This document shows, piece by piece, positions 1 to 12,650 of a stretch of DNA of 64,000 nt. The notes under the pieces are model-generated. The model ran no database searches and was not told where the DNA came from. It saw nothing but the letters and a program-made list of their open reading frames with translations. Position 1 is the first letter of the stretch; each line of letters starts with the position of its first letter. Both the position numbers and the translations under genes were made by a program. The stretch is taken from contig NW_019028991.1 of the NCBI RefSeq assembly GCF_002105155.1, positions 124,001 through 188,000 of the forward strand, in the 5' to 3' direction. Source of the stretch: Lobosporangium transversale. Lineage: Eukaryota.

Positions 1-543
1 ATTAAGATGTGGAGGGCATTCGTGGATGTGTTCAACTGCCTGCCCTTGGCCGCTATTGTTGCCAATAAGATTTTTTGTGTACATGGTGGACTATCACCCA
101 ATTCTCGACGAGGATGACATCCGGGCGATCCGACGCCCTACAGACGTACCAGATTTTGGATTGCTGAATATCTATTGTGGTCAGATCCATCAGACACAGC
201 GGCGGACTGGGAAGATAACGAGCGTGGTGTTTCATATTGCTTTGGACGGAGTATCATCCAAAAGTTTTTGAATCGTCACGATTTTGATCTAGTATGTCGA
301 GCGCACATGGTAGTGGAGGATGGATATGAGTTCTTTAATGACCGGACACTGGTTACTGTCTTTTCGGCACCCAACTATTGTGGCGAATTCGATAACTACG
401 GAGCTGTGATGAGCGTGAACGAAGATCTGCTGTGTAGTTTCGAGCTGTTGAAGCCAATTGATCCAGAAACAGCACGAGCACAGATGCAGAGCCTTGCAGC
501 GTCAGCAGGCGGATGGAGAGTGAACAAGCAACGGCTCAGGTAA
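1..543 (+). CDS. PPZ1: 3' part of a PPZ/PP1-family Ser/Thr protein phosphatase catalytic subunit; runs off the left edge and has two apparent frameshifts (~105 and ~168)
   Basis: Motifs across three frames: [23 protein letters not shown] (frame 1), [19 protein letters not shown] (frame 2), LLWSDP...[13 protein letters not shown]...[33 protein letters not shown] (ORF 175-543). [11 protein letters not shown] and PTDVPDFG are Ppz-type. Confidence 0.85.
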
Positions 544-566
544 GAAAGCTTAAAAAAAGATGCTGT

Positions 567-600
<34 letters not shown>

Positions 601-1257
601 TCTTATATGCATTTCGTTAAATATCTTTTTTTTTTTTTTTTTTTACCTCCTTCATTCATGGATTTAGCTTACCTGATAGCAACTCACTATTCACTTCAAC
701 GCCAGGCAGCATGATGCACGGATAGTCATGAAGCAAGAGAGAAAAGTGCAAACAAAAAAGCCAAGGATATGAGAATTATAATAATAATAATACCTAAAGA
801 GTTTGTTTATCCTTTTATTTACAAAAAAAAAAAAAAAAAAAAAAAAAAGAAAAGCTTGTGCACCATAGACATTTACATTGTTTGTTTCTTCTGCTCACAA
901 TCAACATTCGACGATGACTCGATTCTGAGCGAGAAGGCAAAAAAAGGGGAGTTTTTGGTCTAGATCGTTCTTACAGTTTGTCAATCATTATGTTCGACTT
1001 GTAAAAGTCAATGTCCCTTCTTCGATCTTGTTATTGATAGTTAAACACTACATCGGGCAACATCTGGGGATAAACAAACATTAAGGAAAAGAAAAAGAGA
1101 GGGCGAGAAGGCAATACCCAGATTATTATTTTTTTACGAAAGAAGTGCTGATTTATATATCTCAGGTTACGGATGGACGGAAGGTGTACAAGGTACGCAC
1201 AGTAAATTGGCATCAAAAGGCCGCAAAATTTGAATGTCAACCAACGGAGGAGAGGTA

Positions 1258-1811
1258 AGGCGACTGTTCGGACTCCATCTGATACTGTATAAACACCCGA
1301 ACACTGCCCACATGCTATTGACTACTCTACGTCCCTTAAACAATATTCTTAGCATACATCTGAACTTTTGCAAGGGATGTGTCAATACTTCGACAAACAT
1401 GTAGCAATTAATGGCTATATCACAGCCCTTGGATTGTGGAAGCGCTGAAATTATGCGGAAAACGGGAACCATTTGTGTTTTTACTAGCAACAAGCGTGGT
1501 TTCAAAAAAGGGTGCCTCCAAGGAACAAATCCTATATCCTTCATTGCTCAAAAGAGACAATCTTGTCTTTTCTGCACCCCAAAAGCTCGCCATAATCCTA
1601 TTGAAGCGTTCAGAGGCATTATTTGCCTCATGGTTTGAGGATTAGCAGACTTTCAGTCAAGCTTTATTGTTTTGAACAAACACAGTAAATCCTGTCCATT
1701 CGAAGTTAGTCCCTTTGGATGGCAGCTATTCAGGGGATGCTAATCAGTTCCGCTAAATTATGGTGCAATCAAAGCAGATTTGGAAAACCAACAAGCATCG
1801 AACAGTCGCCT
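1258..1811. mobile_element. Non-autonomous DNA transposon/MITE, copy 1, with both terminal inverted repeats
   Basis: Perfect 15-bp inverted repeat TAAGGCGACTGTTCG (1256-1270) / CGAACAGTCGCCTTA (1799-1813). The interior 1275-1811 recurs at 9427-9951. Confidence 0.75.
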
Positions 1812-1845
1812 TAACAAGCGAGTGACCTCTCTGTGACGCGCACGT

Positions 1846-1900
1846 ACCATGGGGGCGACTTTTCAAATTCTTTTATAGAGATGAAATCCAAAGTCGCCCC
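1846..1900. repeat. Conserved palindromic cassette-boundary site C
   Basis: ACCATG-GGGGCGACTTT-27 nt-AAAGTCGCCCC; differs from 7406-7460 at only 2 positions; lies 100 bp beyond the stop of the minus-strand ORF ending at 2000. Confidence 0.9.
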
Positions 1901-1999
1901 AGTTAATATTTTAGCGTGTTATTAAATTTCTATGACAAGCCTTTTTATAGGATTAAGAACTATATATATTATGTATTACTGTATACTGTGACGAAAATT

Positions 2000-4641
2000 C
2001 TAAGTTGGGATATTTTTAAAAAGTTTCTCTTTGAGCTCGTCGAAGCTGACATGAAGAAGATCTTTGTAATCCTTGATTAATCCAGTGTGGTTTGCTGCAC
2101 CAGGGGAACCACGCATGTAAACTATTTTAAATCCAGTTACTGGCTCTCCATCCTTTTTGACAACAAAATGCCCATCGTCAATTATGGCGGAATGATTACC
2201 TCCAAATACTTCGTCCAAATAGCTTTCAATCTGATTTCTGCCGTCGGGACCTCTCTTATCAAAAGCGTTCTGGATTTGCTTAATTTGTTTCTTCTCGTGT
2301 TCTTGGAAATTACTTATGGACACCTGGATAAACATTGTGTCGAGTATGAAATCAAAGCGAGGATAAGTCGAATGACAATGGCTCAGTACATGTCCATAGC
2401 CACGTCCAAGAGAAGTCATGCCTTGATGGATTGTCCCATGATCCTTAAAGTCCATTATAATCTCCGTTGGATTCACGCCGATAAGGTTTGTTGCTTTGAG
2501 AACGATTGGCTTGGTTAAAGTCAAAAGCCGGACTAGCAGTGCCAACTCGAAATCATCTCCACTCATCTCTCCAAGAATAACTCCCCTCAGGATATGCTCA
2601 TGATGAGGCATATTTGTAAACGCCTGAAAGAGTGCTTTCTGCGCTGGGAGGCACAAGACATAGTTTATGGCTCCGCGGTTCTTGTTGAGACGATAGATAA
2701 GCCCTAGGTCACGGAAATCCCATTCAAAATCACTACTCTGCGAGTTGTTGCCAAGGAAGACTGTTGCAAGGCTTTTAGCGAACTTCTTCTTCGCTTCATC
2801 GCTGCAAGATCTGTAGTACGTCCAAACTACAGTGTGAAACTCGCCTGTTCTCTCAGTTACATACGAATCAATGCTATTTCTTGTGAGTGGTCTTTCCTCA
2901 ATTGACCGGATGAGGAACATAAACTCTCGTGGCACACGGTTTGTAATCCTCATTATATCCTGGACAATATCGGGTTGGTTCAGGTGGACCTCCAACCATT
3001 TTGAAAACACTGTCTCGGATAGTGGGCCAACAAAGTACAATAAGGTGTTTCGAAGACTGCCTGGCATAATCTCCAATTCATATTTGGCATGGGCTGTTCC
3101 TGTAAATATCGCTCTAGATCCTTTGGATTCAGCTTCCCATCGAGTGAGATCCTTTAGATGGTTCAAGAACAGGTATTTATCTGGCACGTACGGCTCTTTT
3201 TGGAATAACTTTCCATGTTCGTCGATAATGAATAGTGTTTTGCGCTCCTTCTGTTTGAATAGGTCGAATAATGCGCGACCAGCCGCAATTGAGCAATCTA
3301 TAACTTCAGAAGCGTCGAGGAGACTTTCCAGATCAGATGCCGTCAAGATATCCCTGTTGAGAGCGAAGAAGATCCTTAACAGTGCCTTTGCCGATTTTAT
3401 TTCCTAGAGCTTGACGAGTAATTGGTTGGAATATCGGTTCAATTTTACTATAACAGTTCTTCAAAGTCTCCAAGAATTGTTCTTTGCGATCCTCCTCATA
3501 ATCCTTTAGTCGTTTCTTAATCCCATTAGCCGCGAGCTCAATGCCTTCAATGTCTTCGCCAAAAAAAAATATTGAATTCCCGTGGCACACATCCGGTGGC
3601 TTTTTGAATCTCGCCTCGTAGCTCATTCAATTGTTGGCGGGCTGTTGGGTGGACCTTATTTATGATCACATCCAGTAGCTTATTGAAAATATCAGGCGAC
3701 AGTGGACTAACATACTCGACATAGTGTGGTGCGTCTCTGAGAATGAGCTTTGCAAATCTTACCGTACTGCTAAACACTACTCTCGCATTATTTGAATTGT
3801 TCCAAGAGTTGAAAGTCTTTAGAGGCCATAAAACTGGGAACCTGTCGGGCGCAGACTTACTATTTTTCTGGAAATAATGCACCATGCTCATCCACGACAA
3901 ATAATGCCTTCTGACTTCTTGACTGGAGTAGGTCACCCAAGATACTGCTGGCGCTACTCACAAAAAGATTTTCCGATGTTTCAATTTCGACCATTTCCTC
4001 GAGCTCTGAGGCTGTCAAAGTATCTTTGTTGATGGATAAGAAGAGTTGACAGATCAGTCGTGATGCGTCAGTATTAGTGTCACAATTGTTAAGTTGATTA
4101 GCATCCGCAATATAAAGCACTGGCCAACCATGTGCATATGCCTTGGCCGCAAGGAACCATGAAATGTATGATTTGCCGACGCCCATTGGACCGTAAACAT
4201 TTCTTGACAGACGACTCACTGTTCTCGAGTTCATTCCATAGCTTCATCATCTATTCAGACATAAAAAAACTCGCGACCTTGATAGCCTCTCGCAAAGAAT
4301 ATTGGGTTCTGACCAAGATCCATTGAAGTAATTCGATTCCCAGCCTGCACCATCAAAAGCGATTGGAACTCGGCGCGGGGTTCTGGTGCATACTTGTTAT
4401 TTTCGCTCAAATTCAGTATATGTTGGGGTAAAACTACGAGTTCGCCATCGACTGCAATATATCGCTTCAAGGAACGACAGCGCTTCGTAAGGTGCTCTTT
4501 GAGCATATAAGAATAGCGAGACTGACGTGAGTATGGAATAAATAAATTTTCTCAAGAATCATCAAAACTATGAATGGAATAAACTCACTTTCTAAATCTT
4601 CGTCTTCTGTGTCTTCTAGGCTCCTTTGGGACTTCTTGGGG
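2000..4641 (-). pseudogene. Headless Crinkler C-terminal cassette B (P-loop NTPase, partial second NTPase, REase-fold domain), disrupted
   Basis: Mini-exon 4641-4589 and main exon from 4496. Fragments YIAVDGELVVLP, GPMGVGKSYISWFLAAKAYAHGWPVLYIADA, FVVDEHG, second unit FIIDEHG...FTGTAHAKYE...RVPRE, C-terminal YPRFDFILDTMFIQVSIS, all paralogous to ORF 5129-6946. Split over five ORFs by frameshifts plus an in-frame TAG near 4251. No ATG or header exon of its own. Confidence 0.8.
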
Positions 4642-4767
4642 CTATTTAAAATCCACGCAATAAACTAACAAGAGGATAGTTAGATAGGAGGCTTTGATAA
4701 AAGTACTTGTATGCGATAGAGCAGTGGGGAGCCGAAATAAGCTCAAGCAAAAAGCCTCGCGAGAGGA

Positions 4768-4830
4768 CAGTGAGAGTCAGAGTATACGCACGCACCATGG
4801 AGGCGACTTTACAAATTCTTTTTACAGATC
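4768..4830. repeat. Degenerate cassette-boundary site B (left arm plus flank; right arm possibly displaced to ~4971-4987)
   Basis: CAGTGAGAGTCAGAG...ACCATGGAGGCGACTTTACAAATTCTTTTTA matches 7380-7436 and 1846-1875. Confidence 0.8.
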
Positions 4831-5128
4831 AAACTGTGCATTTAACAATTAAGCACCATTTACCACTATGCCTACTACCGCCCTCTGAATAATTCTCTAC
4901 AAATAGCAAGACTGGATATTTTTGGCTATTCTAGAATGATTTGGGCGATCTAAAAGTCCCATAAATATAAACAGATCTAAAGTCGTCAAGCCGCATCTGC
5001 GTATTTATCTCAATCTGGTCTCTCATCTCATCTACAACCCGACGCGGCACCCTTTGATAGGATGACGCTTAAAGTTAGAAGATGAATGGAGTAGAAGCTT
5101 CCTTTATTGATAACACTATCCAACACTA

Positions 5129-8028
5129 TCAAACAATGTTTGCAAAGAATAGGCTTTTGAGGTCGTTGAAGCTTACATGTTCTACATCTGGCAACTCTGT
5201 AACGAGCTGGCGGTGATTCCCTAGGTTAATATCTCTACCACAAATGTAGACGATTCGGAATCCAGGAACAACTTCATCAATACCTGTTGTCGGGTCTTTT
5301 TTGGTGACAATAAATCCATCCTTTCCAAAATCAGCTCTATGCTTTCCACCATACATTTCATCCAAGTAACACTCAATCTGATTCCTATCATTATACACCA
5401 CTTTGGGTGTCTTGTACGGTCGCTTAAATGCTTTCCTTAAATCACTTGAATCTCTGTTATGCACTCCAAACTCGCTGACAGACACCTGGATGAATATTGG
5501 TCCAACCATAAAGTCAAATCGAGGATATCCTGGATAGCCACGGGCCAAGAATTTATCTTTTCCAGGGCCAAGAGAATGTCGTTGCCTGCTTATAACTCGG
5601 TAGTCATCGAAGTCCAACACGATCGAGCCCTTAGGATCACCAACGAGGTTCGTTGTAGGGAGCACTATTGGCCTAATACTAGTGCAAATAAATGCATGAA
5701 AAATTGCTTGCTCAAATTCATTTCCACTGAACCTATTAGCCTTGAGCCGATTCTTTAGATCTTCTGGCATTCCCATTGTCTTGAACTGATCCAAAAGTGC
5801 TCTGAAGGCTGTATTGCATAAAGGGCGGAATAAAATTACTCCATCTCTCCTTAGACGGAACAAAAGACCCAGATCTATGAAATCCCACTTGAACTCTCCT
5901 TCGACAGAACCATGTAAGAACGCCGAGGCAAGGCCATTATAAAAATTTGTACGGGTCGTCTCGGATTTTTCGATGCTTTTGTAGTAGTTCTGGATGTTGT
6001 GAGAAAAATCCAACCTTCGGCAGTCTTCAAACTTCTCGAATGCCTCCTTAATGGGTAACTCTGGATTCTCTTCAATATAGGTTGACAAGTTCATCAGCTC
6101 TCGTGGTACAAGGTTCGTGATACTCCGTATATCCTCGTAGTCCGTGGATTGGAGATTGGGAGTATGCTTCAACAGATTCTTGAAAGCGTCATCCAACAAA
6201 GGTCCCACGAATACCACTGTTTTAAAGTCCTCCTTAAAGCTCGATTCCATGATCTCCAATTCGAATTTTGCATGCGCTGTGCCAGTGAGAATCAAACGAG
6301 ATCCAGCCAAGTCTTCAGTCCAACTGGAAAGGTCCATCAGAGGTTTTAAAGATTTAAATTTTTCTGGTACTGGTTTGTCGAATCTGAAGAGTTTCCCATG
6401 TTCGTCAATAATAGTTAGAGTCTTCCGTTCCTTCTGCATGAGCATGTTAAAAACGCGTATGATAGCAGTATTCCATATGCCACCTTGAACACCATAGCCG
6501 GATACAAGCGTCTCCAGTTCGGCAGCAGTTAAAACATCCTTGTTCATCACAAGGAAACGCTCGATCACTTCCATATATGAGTCCGCTTTCTCACTAGTAT
6601 CCAAAGTACCCGCATCTGATATGTAGAGGGTAAGCCATCCTTCAGCATATGCTCTTGCTGTCAAAAAATAGGAGAGAAAGCTCTTGCCAATACCCATTGG
6701 ACCAGACAAGACTCGTCTGTATACGCACCTTTGTTCTTCTTCCATCTCGTTCCAAAGCTCCAGCATTTGGTGCGTGACGAGAATTTCAGAGACTCTATAA
6801 CCCTTTGGGACTTGACCCAGGGATGGTATATCGACCCAACTACCAGCCTTCAGATCGTCTTTGAGATGTTCAAACTCATTACGTGGTTTTGGAAGGTATC
6901 TAGAATCCTCTAGCATTGCGATCCAAGAGGGTGGTAACGTGACCATTTTGCCATCAGAAGCCCTGTATTCTCTCCACCCTTCCTCAATGCGTATCTTCTT
7001 TGAAGGTGAAATATACTGTGGATCTAATTATGATCATCGTACACATACACAGTTGGTTAGTACCATAACATATAGCCAGTCATCAAGTCAATCTATTTAT
7101 ACAGCAAAAAACAAATTATTACCTTCGTCCATTTTTCTCTTGAGAATCTGTCCCGATGTCTCTAGAAAGATAAGAGAGCGCAGCAATGGCAGAAATGTTA
7201 GCATTTTGATCAGATCAAAGAATATATTGCTGTCAATGAGATATGAACGCCAGCTAATGGAGAGTCAGAGCATGTGTGCGAAACGCGAAACAGATTCAAT
7301 CAGAAAAACTAACAAATGCATCAATGTAAACAGGTCAAATAAAAATAAAAATAAAAATGAAAACTGTGTTCTCAGACAACAGTGAGAGTCAGAGCATGCG
7401 CATGGACCATGGGGGCGACTTTTCAATTTTTTTTATAGAGATGAAATCCAAAGTCGCCCCCGGTTAAATAGTGTTGCCGAGATTCATCTCAACAACATAA
7501 AAAAGGGATAGATACACGTGACCGTGATGAGATAGCTTCATCAATTGAACAATCGAAATATCATCAGTCCATCAAGAGCTAATACATACCTCGCTGCGGT
7601 GGCTTGACAAAAACATGGATAGTTTCCTCTGGAAGTTCGGAAATAAATATGTCCCTAAGCTTCCTTGACGCGGGTACGAGAGCCTCTTTCGACACAATTT
7701 CTGACTCAACGACGGTCTTGTCTTTGTCAGGGATGGAAACCTTGTAGAGAGTAAACTGGTCAGCATCGAAGTCCTTAAACGCATTTTTCTTCGCTGCCTT
7801 GATGGCTTGCTTGAGTTCATCGACTGAACAATTGGAAAGAATCTTTACAGAAAAAGAAGTTGCTTCTCCATCAACAATACAAAAAATCTTTAGCTCGGTT
7901 GGCTCGAGGATTTTAGGGTCATTGGTGCTTGAAGACTCTTCCTTCGCTTCCCCTTTTCTTTCTTCTTTCCTTTCATACGGTTTAGTTCGAGGTGATAGGC
8001 ATCGTGGTGATGTTCTGTCGCTTCCCAT
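5129..8028 (-). CDS. Crinkler (CRN)-family protein: ubiquitin-like header exon 8028-7590, mini-exon 7161-7123, exon 7023-5129 (NTPase + REase-fold; cassette A)
   Basis: Header LKIFCIVDGEATSFSVKI...VDELKQAIK...FTLYKVSIP...TIHVFVKPP is the typical CRN N-terminus with its HVLVxxP-like end. Donor GTATGT at 7589. Both introns are phase 1 with TGCTAAC/TACTAAC branch points, and splicing reads in frame (QR-ETSGQILKRKMDE-DPQYISPSKKIR...DGKMVTLPP). Walker A GPMGIGKS, Walker B TIIDEHG, nuclease-like YPRFDF..FIQVS. Confidence 0.88.
7380..7461. repeat. Conserved palindromic cassette-boundary site A, inside the intron between the CRN header and cassette A
   Basis: GGGGGCGACTTT (7411-7422) / AAAGTCGCCCCC (7450-7461) 12-bp inverted arms, plus the flank CAGTGAGAGTCAGAG shared with site B. 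Confidence 0.9.
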
Positions 8029-8924
8029 TGTGATTTCAAAAACAAGGGTGTAAATGGACGGAGGACAGAAAATAGGGAAAGGTTGATAAAAATGCTAAAG
8101 GATGATAATTCAGTAGCAGGATGGTTCAAAATTGTCTAGAGATGAAGTTGAGGGAGGAAAAGAAAAAAAGAAAAAAAGAAAAAAAAAAAGGAAAGGAAAG
8201 GAAAGGAAAGGCAATGAATGAAGGCTTGGAATAAATAAAAGAGCAAAATTGATGGGAGCAAAACTGGGGGGAAATAAGAAAAAAGTGAAAAGAGGATAAA
8301 GGAAGAAAAGGAAGAGGAGAGTGCAAAAATGAAGTGAAGCAAGTTAAAGAAAGGAGCGACAATTGATAAATTTGTTCCTTTATTTCAAGGTTGGGCTATG
8401 CTGTGTGTGTGTGTGAGAAAATTTTTTTTCTTGTTGCACAAGACGCCATGCGATTAAAGGCCCCCAAGTGTGACGTAACATGTATTATTTAAATACACAA
8501 ACACTATTCATTCTCTTTAACTCTCTTGTTTTAACCACACAATCGAAAGTATGCACACATTCACCCTACATTCATCCCACTATGTACAAGTCAAATACTC
8601 CCTCATTCCAAGAACAAGAAGCTGTTACTGATATTGTAAGTGTTCAAACGCGAATAATATTTTTTGTATCAGTGCTTTCTTGGTGATATCTAAGCAAAAT
8701 TATGCTTTAGAGAAAACCCTTGACGCGTCAAACTTTAGGAAGGATGGGGAGAATGACAGCAAAGAAAGAAAAGATGGCAATGAAGAAAAAGAGGAGGATG
8801 ATCAAGTAGATATCCCAGCAATTATATTAGTTGCCCCATAAAGTCTAGTTCATTGCTTGAGAGTAATAAAGAAAAAACTTGGCATTTGGACGTTAAGAAT
8901 GGACTCAATAATATTGGTTTTGTG

Positions 8925-9114
8925 CAAGCCTGAGGGCGAAGTTCATGTGCACATGCACGCGCCGAAAGGCAAACGTGGCATGCTCCTGCAGACACTTCTC
9001 TGGGACCAAGCGTGACATTTTGGCTGGAGGTCTAAAAAATTTCTAAGTTGAACACACCACAGGAAAGGCTCTTTTTTTTTATTTTTTTTTTATTTCCAAG
9101 TCATTTACACCACA

Positions 9115-9153
<39 letters not shown>

Positions 9154-9408
9154 GAGAATGATGGGAGGTAAATTTCGTAATGAATAAATGAGGTTGTGAA
9201 ATGAGAGCAAGAAAAACAATAGCATGCTTCACATGTAGGCCATTTTCTTGTGATCTGCAAACTTTGCTTAAAAAAAAATGACAACCTTTCCTGCGGTGTT
9301 TTCGACTTAAGAAATTTTTTTAAGCAAGTCCCAGCCGGTGAGAGAGAAGAGCAAGCCACATTTGGCTTCCAGCACGTGCATGTGCACATGAACTTCGTCC
9401 TCAGGCTG
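8925..9408. mobile_element. Foldback/MITE-like element with long imperfect TIRs (~140-150 bp)
   Basis: 8928-8979 GCCTGAGGGCGAAGTTCATGTGCACATGCACGCG... is the reverse complement of 9355-9406 (6 mismatches in 52). 9022-9080 also pairs with 9270-9336. GTG flanks both ends (8922-8924, 9409-9411). Confidence 0.8.
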
Positions 9409-9426
9409 GTGACGAGCCTAGTGAAC

Positions 9427-9951
9427 CCATCTGATACTATATAAACACCTGAACACTGCCAGACTACTCTACGTCCCTTAAACAATATTCCTAGTATACA
9501 TCTGAACTTTTGCAAGAGATGTGTCAATACTTCGACAAACATGTAACATTTAATGGCTACATCACAGCCCTTGGATTGTGGAAGCGCTGAAAGTATGCGG
9601 AAAACGGGAACCATTTGTGTTTTTACTAGCAACAAGCGTGGTTTCAAAAAAGGGTGCCTCCAAGGAACAGATCCTATATCCTTCATTGCTCAAAAGAGAC
9701 AATCTTGTCTTTTCTGCACCCCAAAAGCTCGCCATAATCCTATTGAAGCGTTCAGAGGCATTATTTGCCTCATGGTTTGAGGATTAGCAGACTTTCAGTC
9801 AAGTTTTATTGTTTTGAACAACACAGTAAATCCTGTCCATTCGAAGTAGTCCCTCTGGATGGCAGCTATCCAGGGGATGCTAATCATTTCTGCTAAATTG
9901 CGGTGAAATCAGAGCAGATTTGGAAAACCAACAAGCATCGAACAGTCGCCT
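9427..9951. mobile_element. Second, direct-orientation copy of the 1258-1811 element (right TIR present, left TIR not seen)
   Basis: Near-identical to 1275-1811, giving near-identical spurious ORFs in the track; ends CGAACAGTCGCC|TAA. Confidence 0.8.
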
Positions 9952-10545
9952 AAAGAGAACTCAGCGAAACACAAAAAATTGTCATGAGTTTCCAGGCACA
10001 GTGACATGCTACGATTCTTTTTATGGCTGTGCTTCTTGTCGGCGATGAAATCTGTATGCTCACACATGGTGTGGCGTTATTTTTAGGCTGTAGTAGATTC
10101 ATTGCAAATGAGCTGAGGATTGCAAGCAAGGCTAAGTTAAAAAAAAAAAGCCGCATGATGTCAATTAAGATAAAACTGCGATCGATCTTTGGTACTGCAT
10201 AAATATTTATTATTTGTGGTGGAGTTATAATCCAAGTGTGAAAGGCTAACAAATTAAGGCGGATAAAATTTCGTCCATGCGACCTTTGGTTTCCATTCCA
10301 GGCTACAACAATGTTCCTTGGTCTGTGAGCCCTTTTTTTCAACACATGACAAAATATATACAAGTAAAAAAAAAAAGGCACATAGGCATATGTAGAAGTA
10401 GATGGGGGTCAATGATGCTTAAGGAACAGGAGAAAATGCCGGAGCAGGTACAGGTACCATCTAACGTGCTCTAGCCGTCAGTATAATATATAAGGAACAC
10501 ATTTTTAAGTTCCTTACAAGGAAATGATAATAAACCAAGTGCCGC

Positions 10546-10581
<36 letters not shown>

Positions 10582-10849
10582 AAAAGCCCGGTCATCAAAT
10601 TGTTCATGCTTGTTTTTATTGTACTCAGTTGAATGGGCTAGGCTGTTCCATGTTTAGTATTGATGTGCTGAGGCCCATTGATGACGGATCTTGCATATAA
10701 AAGAGGTCACTTAATCCCTTTTTTTTAAAAAAAAATTTTCCTTTTTTCTTTACTTCCAATTTTCATTAATATCGCCTTCAACACTACTCATTCTATACTT
10801 CACATTAAAATAACAAAAGAACTCAAGCGGTCAACCAACATTGCTATCG

Positions 10850-11285
10850 ATGCCATCAAGACATTTATCACCCATGTTTACACATCTTCATAGAAAAGTT
10901 TCTGATCTTGTTCATGGCCGTAAGCAGGATGACGATGCTGCCCATGATGGTGATGTTCAAGACGCCAACTTGGTTCCCACTGATGATCCAGTTGCAAATG
11001 CTAATCCTTCCAACAATTGGGACTATACCATCGTTTTTCGGGGCGCCAAGGTAATATAGATCGTATCAGAATAACTGTTGTGAAGTTGATGGTCTTGATA
11101 TAAAGAAGTAAAGGGATGGCACACGACTCACTCTCGGAAAATTTTTTTTATTGAATCTAGGATCTACTTCGAGGCGACCTGTTAAGTTCTGATCCTTTTC
11201 TCGAGGCATACCTTGGACCACCAGAGGATAAAGAGTCGCTTTCGTTTGTGTAAGTCATTTCTTCCTCGTCTAATTATTCCTTTGG

Positions 11286-11322
<37 letters not shown>

Positions 11323-12650
11323 TCACAGCCTTTTTCTTTTTTTTTTTTTTTTTTTTTTTCTAACTCCTCTTCCATTTTTGTACACTACACTTTCTAAAAA
11401 AAAATTTTTTTTTTTTTAGCACTGGTGTCCAATGGTCGACTTTGAATCCAACTTGGGATGCAACTTGGCATCTGTTGAATGTTACAGATGGTATGCCGCT
11501 TCAGATCTTGGTGAAAGACAAGAACAAGATGGCAGCCGATACTGATCTTGGCAGAGCAGAACTGATCCTCGGATCCAAACTCGAAGGGACACGGGAACAT
11601 GTGCTTGATATCTGGCAATCTGATGACCGCAAGCATGGTCAAGTTTTGATACAGGTAAGATAAAAAAAATACCTCTTTGTTTTATTATTATTATTGTCGT
11701 TGTTGATCACTATTCCAAGTTCAACCAAGGAGAGGAACGCGCAGCAATAGTGACTCATGCAAAACATTCATACCAAAAAAAAAAAAAAAAAAAAAAAAAA
11801 TTAGACGATTGCTTCCCGAAGTGTTGGAAACTCTGCAGCTCTGGAGAAAGCATCCACTAGAGGCCCAGCTCGTTTCTCTCGCCACACCAGTTATGCTGCC
11901 GGTGTTTTGACACGGGAAAAGGCTTTTGAGTTCTACACCTACCGAGTTCGTCTTTATCATCTCTTTGAAGTCTTTGGAAATGATCCTCGGTTTTACCAAC
12001 ACTGGAACACGGAATATGATGCTGCCAAGCGCATCTTTGCAGACTCATTGGAGGGCCTTAACATCCGCAACGCATTGCATTCTCAACACTCATACCTCTA
12101 CCGTCACAGTCGCACGACTCTCTATGATCAATTGGAGACAGCAGATCATTTGGGTCAACTTTTGCATGGCGACCGCTTGAAAAAGGATCAAAATCTGGAC
12201 TTGAAGACGATCGTGTTTACATATTCGATTGTTCCAAAGGGCCTCTACTTTTCAGAAACGGGCACTGCTTTTTTCCAAGACTTCATGTCCAAGCATGCTA
12301 TGCACGCTAATCGAGCCACAGAGGTGATGTATTCTGGAGAGTTCCGTCTGTTCAGAGATCCGGACCATAATGATGATTGGACTCTATTGATTGATAACAA
12401 CTCTGGTACATATGGTCCTAAAAAGGAAGAGTTGTGGAAGGTACAGAGGGTCTTTGAGTTAAACTTCCCAGACTTGGTGGTCAGGGCTGTAGATAGAGAG
12501 GATCCCTATCTTCTGGAGATCAAGGAGGCGACCAAGCAAGCTGAAGCTATGCAGGCATCTCAACAGTCTCAAAGGTGGACACTTTTCGGTGGTATTAACA
12601 GCAAAACCGAAGAAACGATGCCACCAGCTGAGCATGTATGCGAGGTGTAA
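10850..12650 (+). CDS. C2-domain-containing protein (exons ~10850-11050, 11161-11249, 11420-11654, 11804-12650)
   Basis: Spliced frame is continuous: YTIVFRGAK|DLLRGDLLSSDPFLEAYLG...STLNPTWDATW...ILVKDKNKMAADTDLGRAEL (C2 fold), with a C-terminal domain containing YSGEF and IDNNSGTYGP. TATAAAAG at ~10697. Confidence 0.8.

What the first reader, a model, noticed from the sequence alone, without database searches (positions are those of the whole stretch)
1000..8028. Crinkler cassette array: one header exon, serial headless toxin cassettes, each bounded by a conserved palindromic site (integron-like architecture in a fungus)
Seen, reading the minus strand: CRN ubiquitin-like header exon (8028-7590, phase-1 donor just after HVFVKPPQR), site A (7461-7380), acceptor, cassette A (7161-5129, intact), site B (~4830-4768), acceptor, cassette B (4641-2000, decayed), site C (1900-1846), then a possible stub. 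Neither cassette has its own header or ATG, and both open with a splice acceptor and short KR-containing mini-exon compatible with the single header donor. Established: CRN proteins are modular, and diverse C-terminal toxin domains are joined to the header at the HVLVxxP motif. Inference: the locus is an expression site plus stored cassettes that are inserted, excised or swapped by recombination at the intronic site, or chosen by alternative 3' splicing. Junction scars would be spliced out. The gradient from intact to decayed to stub fits insertion next to the header. No recombinase gene is visible in this window.
Basis: partly seen in the sequence, partly recalled or inferred. Interest (0 to 1): 0.92.

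Follow-up and report, generated by a model that had tools for sequence, protein, structure and literature searches.

The report
Mobile Crinkler tails swap gene heads
In a Mortierellaceae-type fungus, the tail of a Crinkler gene occurs in an estimated nine near-identical copies, one of them annotated behind a very different head exon, and it is bounded by a conserved hairpin inside an intron that likely serves as the landing site for mobile tail cassettes whose seams are spliced out.

Summary
The core anatomy is real; the stored-library reading is not supported at this locus. Header, intron, cassette A and sites A and C are confirmed, and RNA contigs splice header to A. Site B is only a half-site. 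'Cassette B' is two broken paralog pieces with an early stop in the header's frame; no header-to-B splice was seen. The 'stub' is a PIF/Harbinger-like MITE, whose partial twin at 9427-9950 brackets the whole array. Read depth puts the A+B block at about nine near-identical copies. A named Lobosporangium record has cassette A (631/631 residues) behind a header only 47% identical, and RNA joins a foreign header to the same acceptor. Best reading (0.5): headless tails are non-autonomous mobile units ending in the two halves of the hairpin and landing in header introns; the enzyme is not in the window, and a rolling-circle (Helitron-type) one is my first guess. Main rival (0.3): ordinary ectopic recombination in the conserved intron plus MITE-driven moves; the headers are themselves mosaics. 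Head/tail swapping in Crinklers is known; I found no paper on a DNA site for it.

The parts
9427..9950 (-). Outer MITE copy (left terminal repeat GGCGACTGTTCG at 9950, flank TTA; right end replaced by the 8927-9407 element)
   Evidence: 94% identical to 1275-1814; ends and flanks; single-copy contig 9925-10478 runs into it
8927..9407 (.). Second inverted-repeat (foldback/MITE-like) element, 59-nt arms
   Evidence: multi-copy depth about 150 against about 8
7590..8028 (-). CRN ubiquitin-like header exon with phase-1 donor after HVFVKPPQR
   Evidence: PF20147 E 5.6e-22; donor; RNA joint
7162..7589 (-). Intron 1, which holds site A and removes the seam
   Evidence: RNA joint skips 428 nt, GT-AG
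7471..7496 (.). Small second hairpin in the upstream half-site
   Evidence: fold; a related stretch follows B2-type paralogs (22/30 match at 7474)
7380..7470 (-). Site A, full: arms 7450-7461 and 7411-7422, 27-nt spacer with A^TC near 7441, about 30 conserved bases downstream
7123..7161 (-). Cassette A mini-exon (KR-containing), open in the header's frame
5129..7023 (-). Cassette A main exon: STAND/AAA+-type NTPase plus restriction-endonuclease-like tail domain; intact and expressed; minor internal intron 6616-6728
4762..4833 (-). Site B: downstream half only, likeness starts at about A^TC; no hairpin
3420..4641 (-). B1: broken 5' part of a different paralog (stop in mini-exon, frame changes and stops further on)
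2000..3403 (-). B2: 5'-truncated piece of a third paralog (84% identical to full-length P0021/P0128 tails), joined to B1
1814..1915 (-). Site C, full: arms 1890-1900 and 1852-1862; downstream half cut short by the MITE
1259..1810 (-). Complete inner MITE, 12-bp terminal inverted repeats, flanks TAA and TTA
   Evidence: single-copy contig 860-1287 runs into it
1880..7440 (-). Inferred mobile block (A + half-site B + B1/B2) from the centre of site A to the centre of site C, about nine copies
   Evidence: depth 69-74 over 4560-6941 against single-copy 6.4-8.6 in run X2, 63-70 against 5.1-9.5 in X3; B2 and C-type arm about 60-70 by subtraction from tables 3 and 4; no single contig spans the block

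Best explanation
The headless Crinkler tail block is a young, multi-copy unit that likely moves by using the two halves of a conserved intronic hairpin as its ends, likely landing at the same site in the introns of different header genes, where splicing removes the seam. Shown: the site, the splice, the copy number, an identical tail behind an unlike header, and both half-sites beside other partners. Inferred: each full site is a junction of an upstream half (small hairpin, then GGGGGCGACTTT, ending TTTCA) carried by header introns and cassette 3' ends, and a downstream half (TC..., AAAGTCGCCCCC, about 30 more bases) carried by cassette 5' ends. Inserting a cassette at a site leaves two full sites in direct repeat (A and C). 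B1/B2 are dead passengers fused to A after loss of an upstream half, like fused integron cassettes. The enzyme is predicted to act in trans. A rolling-circle (Helitron-type HUH) enzyme is my first guess (about half of this 0.5), then a tyrosine recombinase or the Harbinger-like proteins that serve the flanking MITE. The whole array probably reached this intergenic spot as a MITE-bounded composite, or by recombination into a resident MITE.
For: Block bounded by two sites 94% identical while its coding parts are 41% identical. Equal depth across 4560-6941, about 9 copies in two DNA runs of different studies; the identical tail protein is on 4 contigs (P0121) plus P0122 and P0123. Tail identity without header identity: window vs P0122 631/631 with headers 58/124; P0126 vs P0128 617/627 with headers 56/103. 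RNA loose ends, read by eye: a VKLPPP-type header on the acceptor at 7163, and header ends like the window's joined to P0130- and P0132-type tails. Half-sites occur away from header introns: upstream half behind B2 (site C), downstream half behind A (site B); another cassette-side half at 7407 (22/30 to site A, 0 of 15 shuffles above 19) and a longer upstream half behind B2 paralogs. All three downstream halves start at A^TC, the canonical Helitron start and target; 11-12-bp inverted repeats set asymmetrically to a junction match Helitron2 ends joined tail to head (PMC11417382, PMC5148889, passages). CRN genes in tail-to-head Helitron-like arrays are reported for P. infestans (PMC5289972, section 11). 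One named CRN model of this genus runs into a Helitron Rep remnant (P0132, PF14214 E 1e-17).
Against: No recombinase, Rep or transposase Pfam hit in 73 of the 78 frames of 110 aa or more in the window. Among the best 120 of 338 relatives of the Rep remnant, none was an intact Lobosporangium RepHel and no other carried a CRN header. Upstream halves end in TTTCA/TTTGA, not hairpin+CTRR, and the junction is A^T, not the T^T of Helitron2. Headers are patchworks and P0127-type tails switch type inside an exon, so plain homologous exchange is clearly active. The 22/30 match of the B2-paralog flank was reached by 1 of 15 shuffles; its weight is its position. No empty site, circle or strain difference was seen; no genome was held. 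The site was not found in metagenome contigs (0 hits) or in 7 related loci, only 1 of which spans a Ubl header junction.
Confidence: 0.5

Rival explanations
1. No dedicated enzyme. The first 200 bases of the header intron, hairpin included, are a conserved homology block in which ordinary ectopic crossover and gene conversion swap heads and tails. Copies spread as MITE-bounded composites or segmental duplications, and the hairpin is a breakage hotspot or a relic.
For: The intron's 5' part is shared by unlike headers (P0137, P0139 read into it). Headers are mosaics of N- and C-terminal types. A- and B2-type tails share their first 52 residues and switch inside the exon. MITE ends coincide with the single-copy/multi-copy borders, and the outer flanks are both TTA. 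Ectopic N/C and fragment recombination is documented for P. sojae CRNs (PMC3726527, passages).
Against: It does not explain half-sites outside header introns (behind A and behind B2), a sharp start of likeness at A^TC in site B, or a short 63-bp direct repeat at both ends of the block. TTA/TAA flanks match by chance half the time, and the inner MITE's flanks do not match each other.
Confidence: 0.3
2. The cassette is a self-mobilising transposon. Its NTPase plus restriction-fold nuclease is the transposase, it is expressed only after landing behind a header, and it cuts at the hairpin.
For: The one intact, expressed member of the block is the amplified one. The NTPase aligns with DAP3/archaeal ATPases (Z 20.1 and 15.7) and more weakly with TnsC (Z 12.1, rmsd 5.4, 258 aligned) and MuB (Z 10.1). 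The tail domain's best matches are restriction-fold nucleases (top Z 5.6), with D504 in 51 of 51 and Q513 in 50 of 51 aligned rows. The review links NTPase+REase pairs to transposable elements (PMC5289972, section 11); that Zhang et al. 2016 suggested some may still be transposons is my recall, as the paper was not held.
Against: The same site serves unrelated tail types (P0130, P0132, P0135 tails). TnsC and MuB likeness is no better than Cdc6/NLR likeness. The nuclease Z is in the range of common arrangements. No activity was tested.
Confidence: 0.12
3. One reading: one expression site plus stored cassettes chosen by alternative 3' splicing or by serial insertion next to the header.
For: P0127 and P0128 share one header (145/145) and have neighbouring accession numbers but A-type and B2-type tails, which could be two acceptors behind one header at a sister locus. 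A B1-type paralog is spliced in RNA.
Against: Here B1 has a stop at codon 8 in the header's frame and B2 lacks its 5' end. No header-to-B joint among the 3 joints. A's transcript contig ends near 5063, before site B. The broken pieces travel with A. P0127/P0128 may be two loci or a model artefact.
Confidence: 0.08

Closest known systems
Crinkler (CRN/CR) head-tail recombination at HVLVxxP in Phytophthora (PMC5289972, section 11 and passages; PMC3726527, passages)
   Same: Ubl header, NTPase + REase-like tail, junction right after the motif, identical tails behind unlike heads, a proposed Helitron link.
   Different: Here the junction is a phase-1 intron holding a defined two-part DNA site that also closes cassettes; the passages read name a protein motif as hotspot, not a DNA site ('intron' has 0 hits in PMC3726527).
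Helitron-like elements HLE1/HLE2, FoHeli (PMC11417382, PMC5148889, passages)
   Same: A^TC starts; 11-12-bp inverted repeats asymmetric to a junction; tail-to-head joins; nested elements with repeated ends; cargo without own transposase.
   Different: No hairpin+CTRR end; junction not T^T; small hairpin lies inside the repeat; no intact RepHel found; apparent preference for its own site in an intron.
Bacterial integrons (PMC8876359, passages)
   Same: Headless cassettes expressed from a platform; hairpin site completed by neighbouring units; fused cassettes moving as one after loss of a site.
   Different: No IntI beside it; the platform gives a spliced exon, not only a promoter; copies multiply across loci; downstream cassettes are dead, not a reserve.
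AACRNL of fish, moved by flanking hAT/mariner ends (PMC12957317, abstract and section 8)
   Same: A CRN-like gene in a free-living eukaryote spreading inside non-autonomous TIR ends, like the MITE pair here.
   Different: There the whole gene moves; no internal head/tail site; different toxin domain.
PIF/Harbinger MITEs (PMC2213677, passages)
   Same: Short GG-starting TIRs, TAA/TTA flanks, about 550 bp, many copies.
   Different: TIR 12 bp; the G(N)5GTT motif fits only with a one-base offset; no autonomous partner seen.
Crypton tyrosine-recombinase elements (PMC3212892, PMC13465315, passages)
   Same: Site-like ends, no target duplication, proposed circles.
   Different: Arms are 27 nt apart, not 6-8; no YR gene.

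Membership tests
Crinkler/CR proteins | Ubiquitin-like N-terminal header (PF20147) | tested here: met
   E 5.6e-22, 78.9 bits against cut-off 24.6
Crinkler/CR proteins | HVLVxxP-type motif ending the header, tails joined behind it | tested here: met
   HVFVKPPQR; 14 named relatives split there with varied tails
Crinkler/CR proteins | P-loop NTPase in the tail | tested here: met
   Walker A at 108, B at 205; Z 20.1, rmsd 3.1, 259 aligned to DAP3-type; Z 15.7 to archaeal ATPase
Crinkler/CR proteins | Restriction-fold nuclease at the C-terminus | tested here: inconclusive
   Foldseek no hit under E 0.001; VIA-align list led by REase-fold chains but top Z only 5.6, rmsd 4.2, 120 aligned; conserved E438, D504, Q513
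Crinkler/CR proteins | Delivery into another cell / toxicity | not testable with these tools
   no assay
Integron | IntI tyrosine recombinase beside the array | tested here: not met
   no such Pfam hit in 73 of 78 frames of 110 aa or more; short exons could be missed; rest of genome not held
Integron | Cassettes without own promoter/start, expressed from a platform | tested here: met
   A is spliced to the header; no header between A and B
Integron | Each cassette closed by a hairpin site | tested here: not met
   A is followed by a half-site without hairpin; B2 is followed by a full one
Integron | Excision as circles and re-insertion | not testable with these tools
   only assembled contigs, which drop rare forms
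Helitron HLE1 | 5' TC, inserted between A and T | tested here: met
   3 of 3 downstream halves show A^TC; the junction base is inferred from site B only
Helitron HLE1 | 3' short hairpin plus CTRR | tested here: not met
   upstream halves end TTTCA; site B target TTTGA
Helitron HLE1/HLE2 | Autonomous RepHel partner with the same ends | tested here: inconclusive
   one decayed Rep remnant behind a CRN model; none intact from this genus among best 120 of 338; its DNA ends not available
Helitron HLE2 | 11-18-nt asymmetric terminal inverted repeats | tested here: met
   arms 11-12 nt, about 8 and 19 nt from the inferred junction
Helitron HLE2 | Terminal stem-loop outside the repeat; T^T insertion | tested here: inconclusive
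   a hairpin at 7471-7496 lies on the inner side; true ends not mapped
Crypton / simple tyrosine-recombinase site | 11-13-bp inverted repeats 6-8 bp apart | tested here: not met
   perfect arms are 27 nt apart; an imperfect inner extension exists
PIF/Harbinger MITE (flanking element) | Short TIRs with TAA/TTA flanks | tested here: met
   3 of 3 ends; outer pair TTA/TTA, inner pair TAA/TTA
PIF/Harbinger MITE (flanking element) | G(N)5GTT TIR motif | tested here: inconclusive
   fits from the second base only (against PMC2213677)
PIF/Harbinger MITE (flanking element) | Autonomous two-gene partner | not testable with these tools
   no genome held

The most novel reading that the evidence does not exclude
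A eukaryotic integron-like exon-shuffling machine: Crinkler tails are mobile cassettes that an enzyme inserts precisely at a hairpin site in header introns, building new head-tail proteins with the scar spliced out. In the boldest form the enzyme is the cassette's own NTPase-nuclease, so that Crinklers are caught still acting as transposons.
Probability: 0.3. Interest if true: 0.9.

Novelty: new variant of a known kind. Interest (0 to 1): 0.66.

Why it matters
That Crinkler heads and tails are recombined has been known from protein comparisons for years, but the DNA mechanism is a hypothesis (Helitron-mediated, per the review read). This locus offers a concrete 90-bp site, a young nine-copy block and RNA-supported head swaps in a non-pathogenic fungal lineage. 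One genome table and one outward PCR can separate site-guided insertion from plain ectopic recombination, and a knock-down can test whether the NTPase-nuclease tail still mobilises itself. If insertion is precise, it is a natural intron-targeted cassette system in a eukaryote.

Tried and rejected
Whole genome: none held, so the site could not be counted genome-wide. Rfam on 1-12000: 3 weak matches far below gathering scores, ignored. tRNA scan: 0. Run search: no holder on record as RNA; X6 was a guess and is taken as RNA because of its GT-AG joints. Run X8 was dropped: 543 of about 570 listed changes were C>T or G>A, as in a bisulfite library. Site pattern in metagenome contigs: 0. Looser pattern in viral contigs: 17 stretches, none alike beyond the arms, rejected as chance. 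Protein search of viral contigs: 0 of 529 candidates. Metagenome protein scan: 7 loci from 596 candidates, half the collection scanned, none with the site. Foldseek on the C-terminal domain: nothing under E 0.001. Atlas search of residues 420-631: unnamed clusters only. Considered and set aside: LTR retrotransposon (the 540-bp repeats have inverted ends and no retro genes lie between); the site as a free mini-MITE (its flanks are conserved, not duplicated); P0132 as a true CRN-Helitron fusion (a decayed remnant appended by the gene model, not recurrent). Earlier scan notes: 5 look-ups, nothing on this DNA or family arrangement. Literature: 10 searches, listings only, showed no paper on a DNA site in CRN introns; subscription papers and Zhang et al. 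2016 with its supplements were not available and may bear on novelty.
Full report
Setting. Relatives of cassette A are mostly Mortierellaceae proteins (132 hits, best 53% identity), and named Lobosporangium transversale records hold the identical tail. The array lies between a phosphatase exon and ordinary housekeeping genes. No whole genome was held, so genome-wide statements rest on read depth and protein records.

Observation. The header exon 8028-7590 is PF20147 and ends in G|GT. RNA-run contigs skip 7162-7589 and 7024-7122, and less often 6616-6728, all GT-AG; these are the only 3 joints listed for 4560-7660. Cassette A is intact. Its model (pLDDT 91) has an NTPase like DAP3 and archaeal ATPases (Z 20.1 and 15.7) and a C-terminal domain whose weak best matches are restriction-fold nucleases (top Z 5.6). 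Sites A and C have perfect arms of 12 and 11 bp around 27 nt and fold well. Site B has only the downstream half. 'Cassette B' is two pieces that cover the same NTPase stretch: B1, broken in several places and closest to P0134/P0111 (about 60% in the best piece), and B2, 84% identical to the tails of P0021/P0128 but without its 5' part. B1's mini-exon stops at codon 8 in the header's frame. The 'stub' is the rest of site C followed by a 552-bp element with 12-bp inverted ends and TAA/TTA flanks; a partial twin at 9427-9950 brackets the array.

Copy number. Laying two DNA runs of different studies shows single-copy flanks (depth 5-10) that end about 30 bases inside the outer MITE ends, and multi-copy DNA between. 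Contigs over 4560-6941 have depth 69-74 in X2 and 63-70 in X3 with 0-1 differences, about 9 copies (7-14 across calibrators). So B1's start, half-site B and A were copied together. The window-type B2 letters and the site-C-type arm have similar depth by subtraction, which suggests that the block runs from site A to site C, but no contig spans it. These contigs drop rare variants, so 'near-identical' means the majority form. Summed depth at site A (about 1100-1300) is of the same order as at the header donor (about 850-1030, table 4); both are inflated by overlapping short contigs, so this is only a weak sign that site number tracks header number.

Head swapping. P0122 carries cassette A's main exon exactly (631/631) behind a header 58/124 identical to the window's; P0126 and P0128 share 617/627 tail residues behind headers 56/103 identical. 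RNA loose ends, which I translated by eye, put a P0122-type header end on the acceptor at 7163 and window-like header ends on P0130- and P0132-type tails. DNA loose ends show another cassette-side half (22/30 to site A; best of 15 shuffles 19) and, behind B2 paralogs, a stretch like the header intron just upstream of site A (22/30 at 7474; 1 of 15 shuffles reached 22). Upstream halves therefore close cassettes as well as header introns, and downstream halves open cassettes.

Mechanism. A block that begins with a downstream half, ends with an upstream half and sits between their complements is what insertion at a full site leaves behind. The short 63-bp repeat, the half-sites outside header introns and the sharp A^TC start at site B are hard to get from homologous exchange alone. 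Which chemistry is unknown. A^TC is the canonical Helitron start, and short inverted repeats set unevenly about a junction resemble Helitron2 ends joined tail to head (PMC11417382, PMC5148889; passages). Against this, CTRR and T^T are missing, and only one decayed Rep remnant is linked to a CRN model. The 27-nt spacer does not fit simple tyrosine-recombinase sites (PMC3212892, passages). The site arms share GGCGACT with the MITE ends: 8 of the 10 copies of this heptamer in the window lie in sites or MITE ends, so a Harbinger-type protein is a third candidate. No such enzyme was found in 73 of 78 long frames (the 5 left out are antisense or MITE frames below 9 kb).

Evidence for the main rival is real. 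Headers are patchworks of N- and C-terminal types, the intron start is shared by unlike headers, and tails switch type inside an exon, as described for P. sojae (PMC3726527, passages). The multi-copy borders coincide with MITE ends, as for fish AACRNL inside hAT ends (PMC12957317, abstract and section 8). Both processes may act together. The stored-library version fails at this locus but is not excluded at a sister locus (P0127/P0128).

Range. The site was not found in metagenome contigs or in 7 related loci; only L004 spans a Ubl header junction, and it holds an unrelated long-TIR MITE there. So far the site is known from one lineage.

Known and new. Head-tail recombination at HVLVxxP and a Helitron hypothesis are in the review PMC5289972 (passages and section 11). 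Integron features are from PMC8876359 (passages), MITE features from PMC2213677 (passages); PMC13465315 and bioRxiv 10.1101/2021.03.30.436303 were seen as passages and added no such site. Ten literature searches (listings only) showed no DNA site for CRN swapping; Zhang et al. 2016 could not be read, and what I say of it beyond the review is recall. Verdict: a new variant of a known kind, with a testable site; interest 0.66.

Noticed in passing
L004:308-953: In an unrelated metagenome contig, a MITE with 87-nt terminal repeats sits right at the CRN header/tail junction: a second case of a mobile element at this seam.
   Followed up: partly
window 1259, 1810, 9950 and site arms: MITE terminal repeats and site arms share the heptamer GGCGACT; 8 of its 10 copies in 64 kb are in these places.
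   Followed up: partly
window 8927-9407: A second multi-copy inverted-repeat element with nested arms replaces the right end of the outer MITE.
   Followed up: no
window 6616-6728: A minor intron inside cassette A (depth 629 against about 2300) gives a short truncated product; record P0127 uses it.
   Followed up: partly
P0021, P0127, P0128: Neighbouring accession numbers, one shared header, two tail types: possible alternative acceptors at a sister locus.
   Followed up: partly
P0135/P0124 and P0403/P0129: Two more named loci on one contig pair a near-identical header with a nearby B2-type C-terminal fragment, like the window's passenger.
   Followed up: no
P0132: CRN gene model running into a decayed canonical Helitron Rep fragment.
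   Followed up: yes
one search hit list: Many Mortierellaceae relatives are annotated without a header, and some have neighbouring locus tags (EC991_010432/010434, EMPS_09804/09811); arrays may be wider than this lineage.
   Followed up: no
window 7252-7281: Partial second copy of the downstream half-site motif further along intron 1.
   Followed up: no
run X8 on window 500-11500: Almost only C>T and G>A changes, as in a bisulfite library; could give the methylation state of the block if raw reads were used.
   Followed up: no
window 11805-64000: Housekeeping neighbours by Pfam: kinase, NIPA Mg transporter, Ras, UCH, Arf, prenyltransferase, TPR, Cdc37; no further CRN or site copy.
   Followed up: yes
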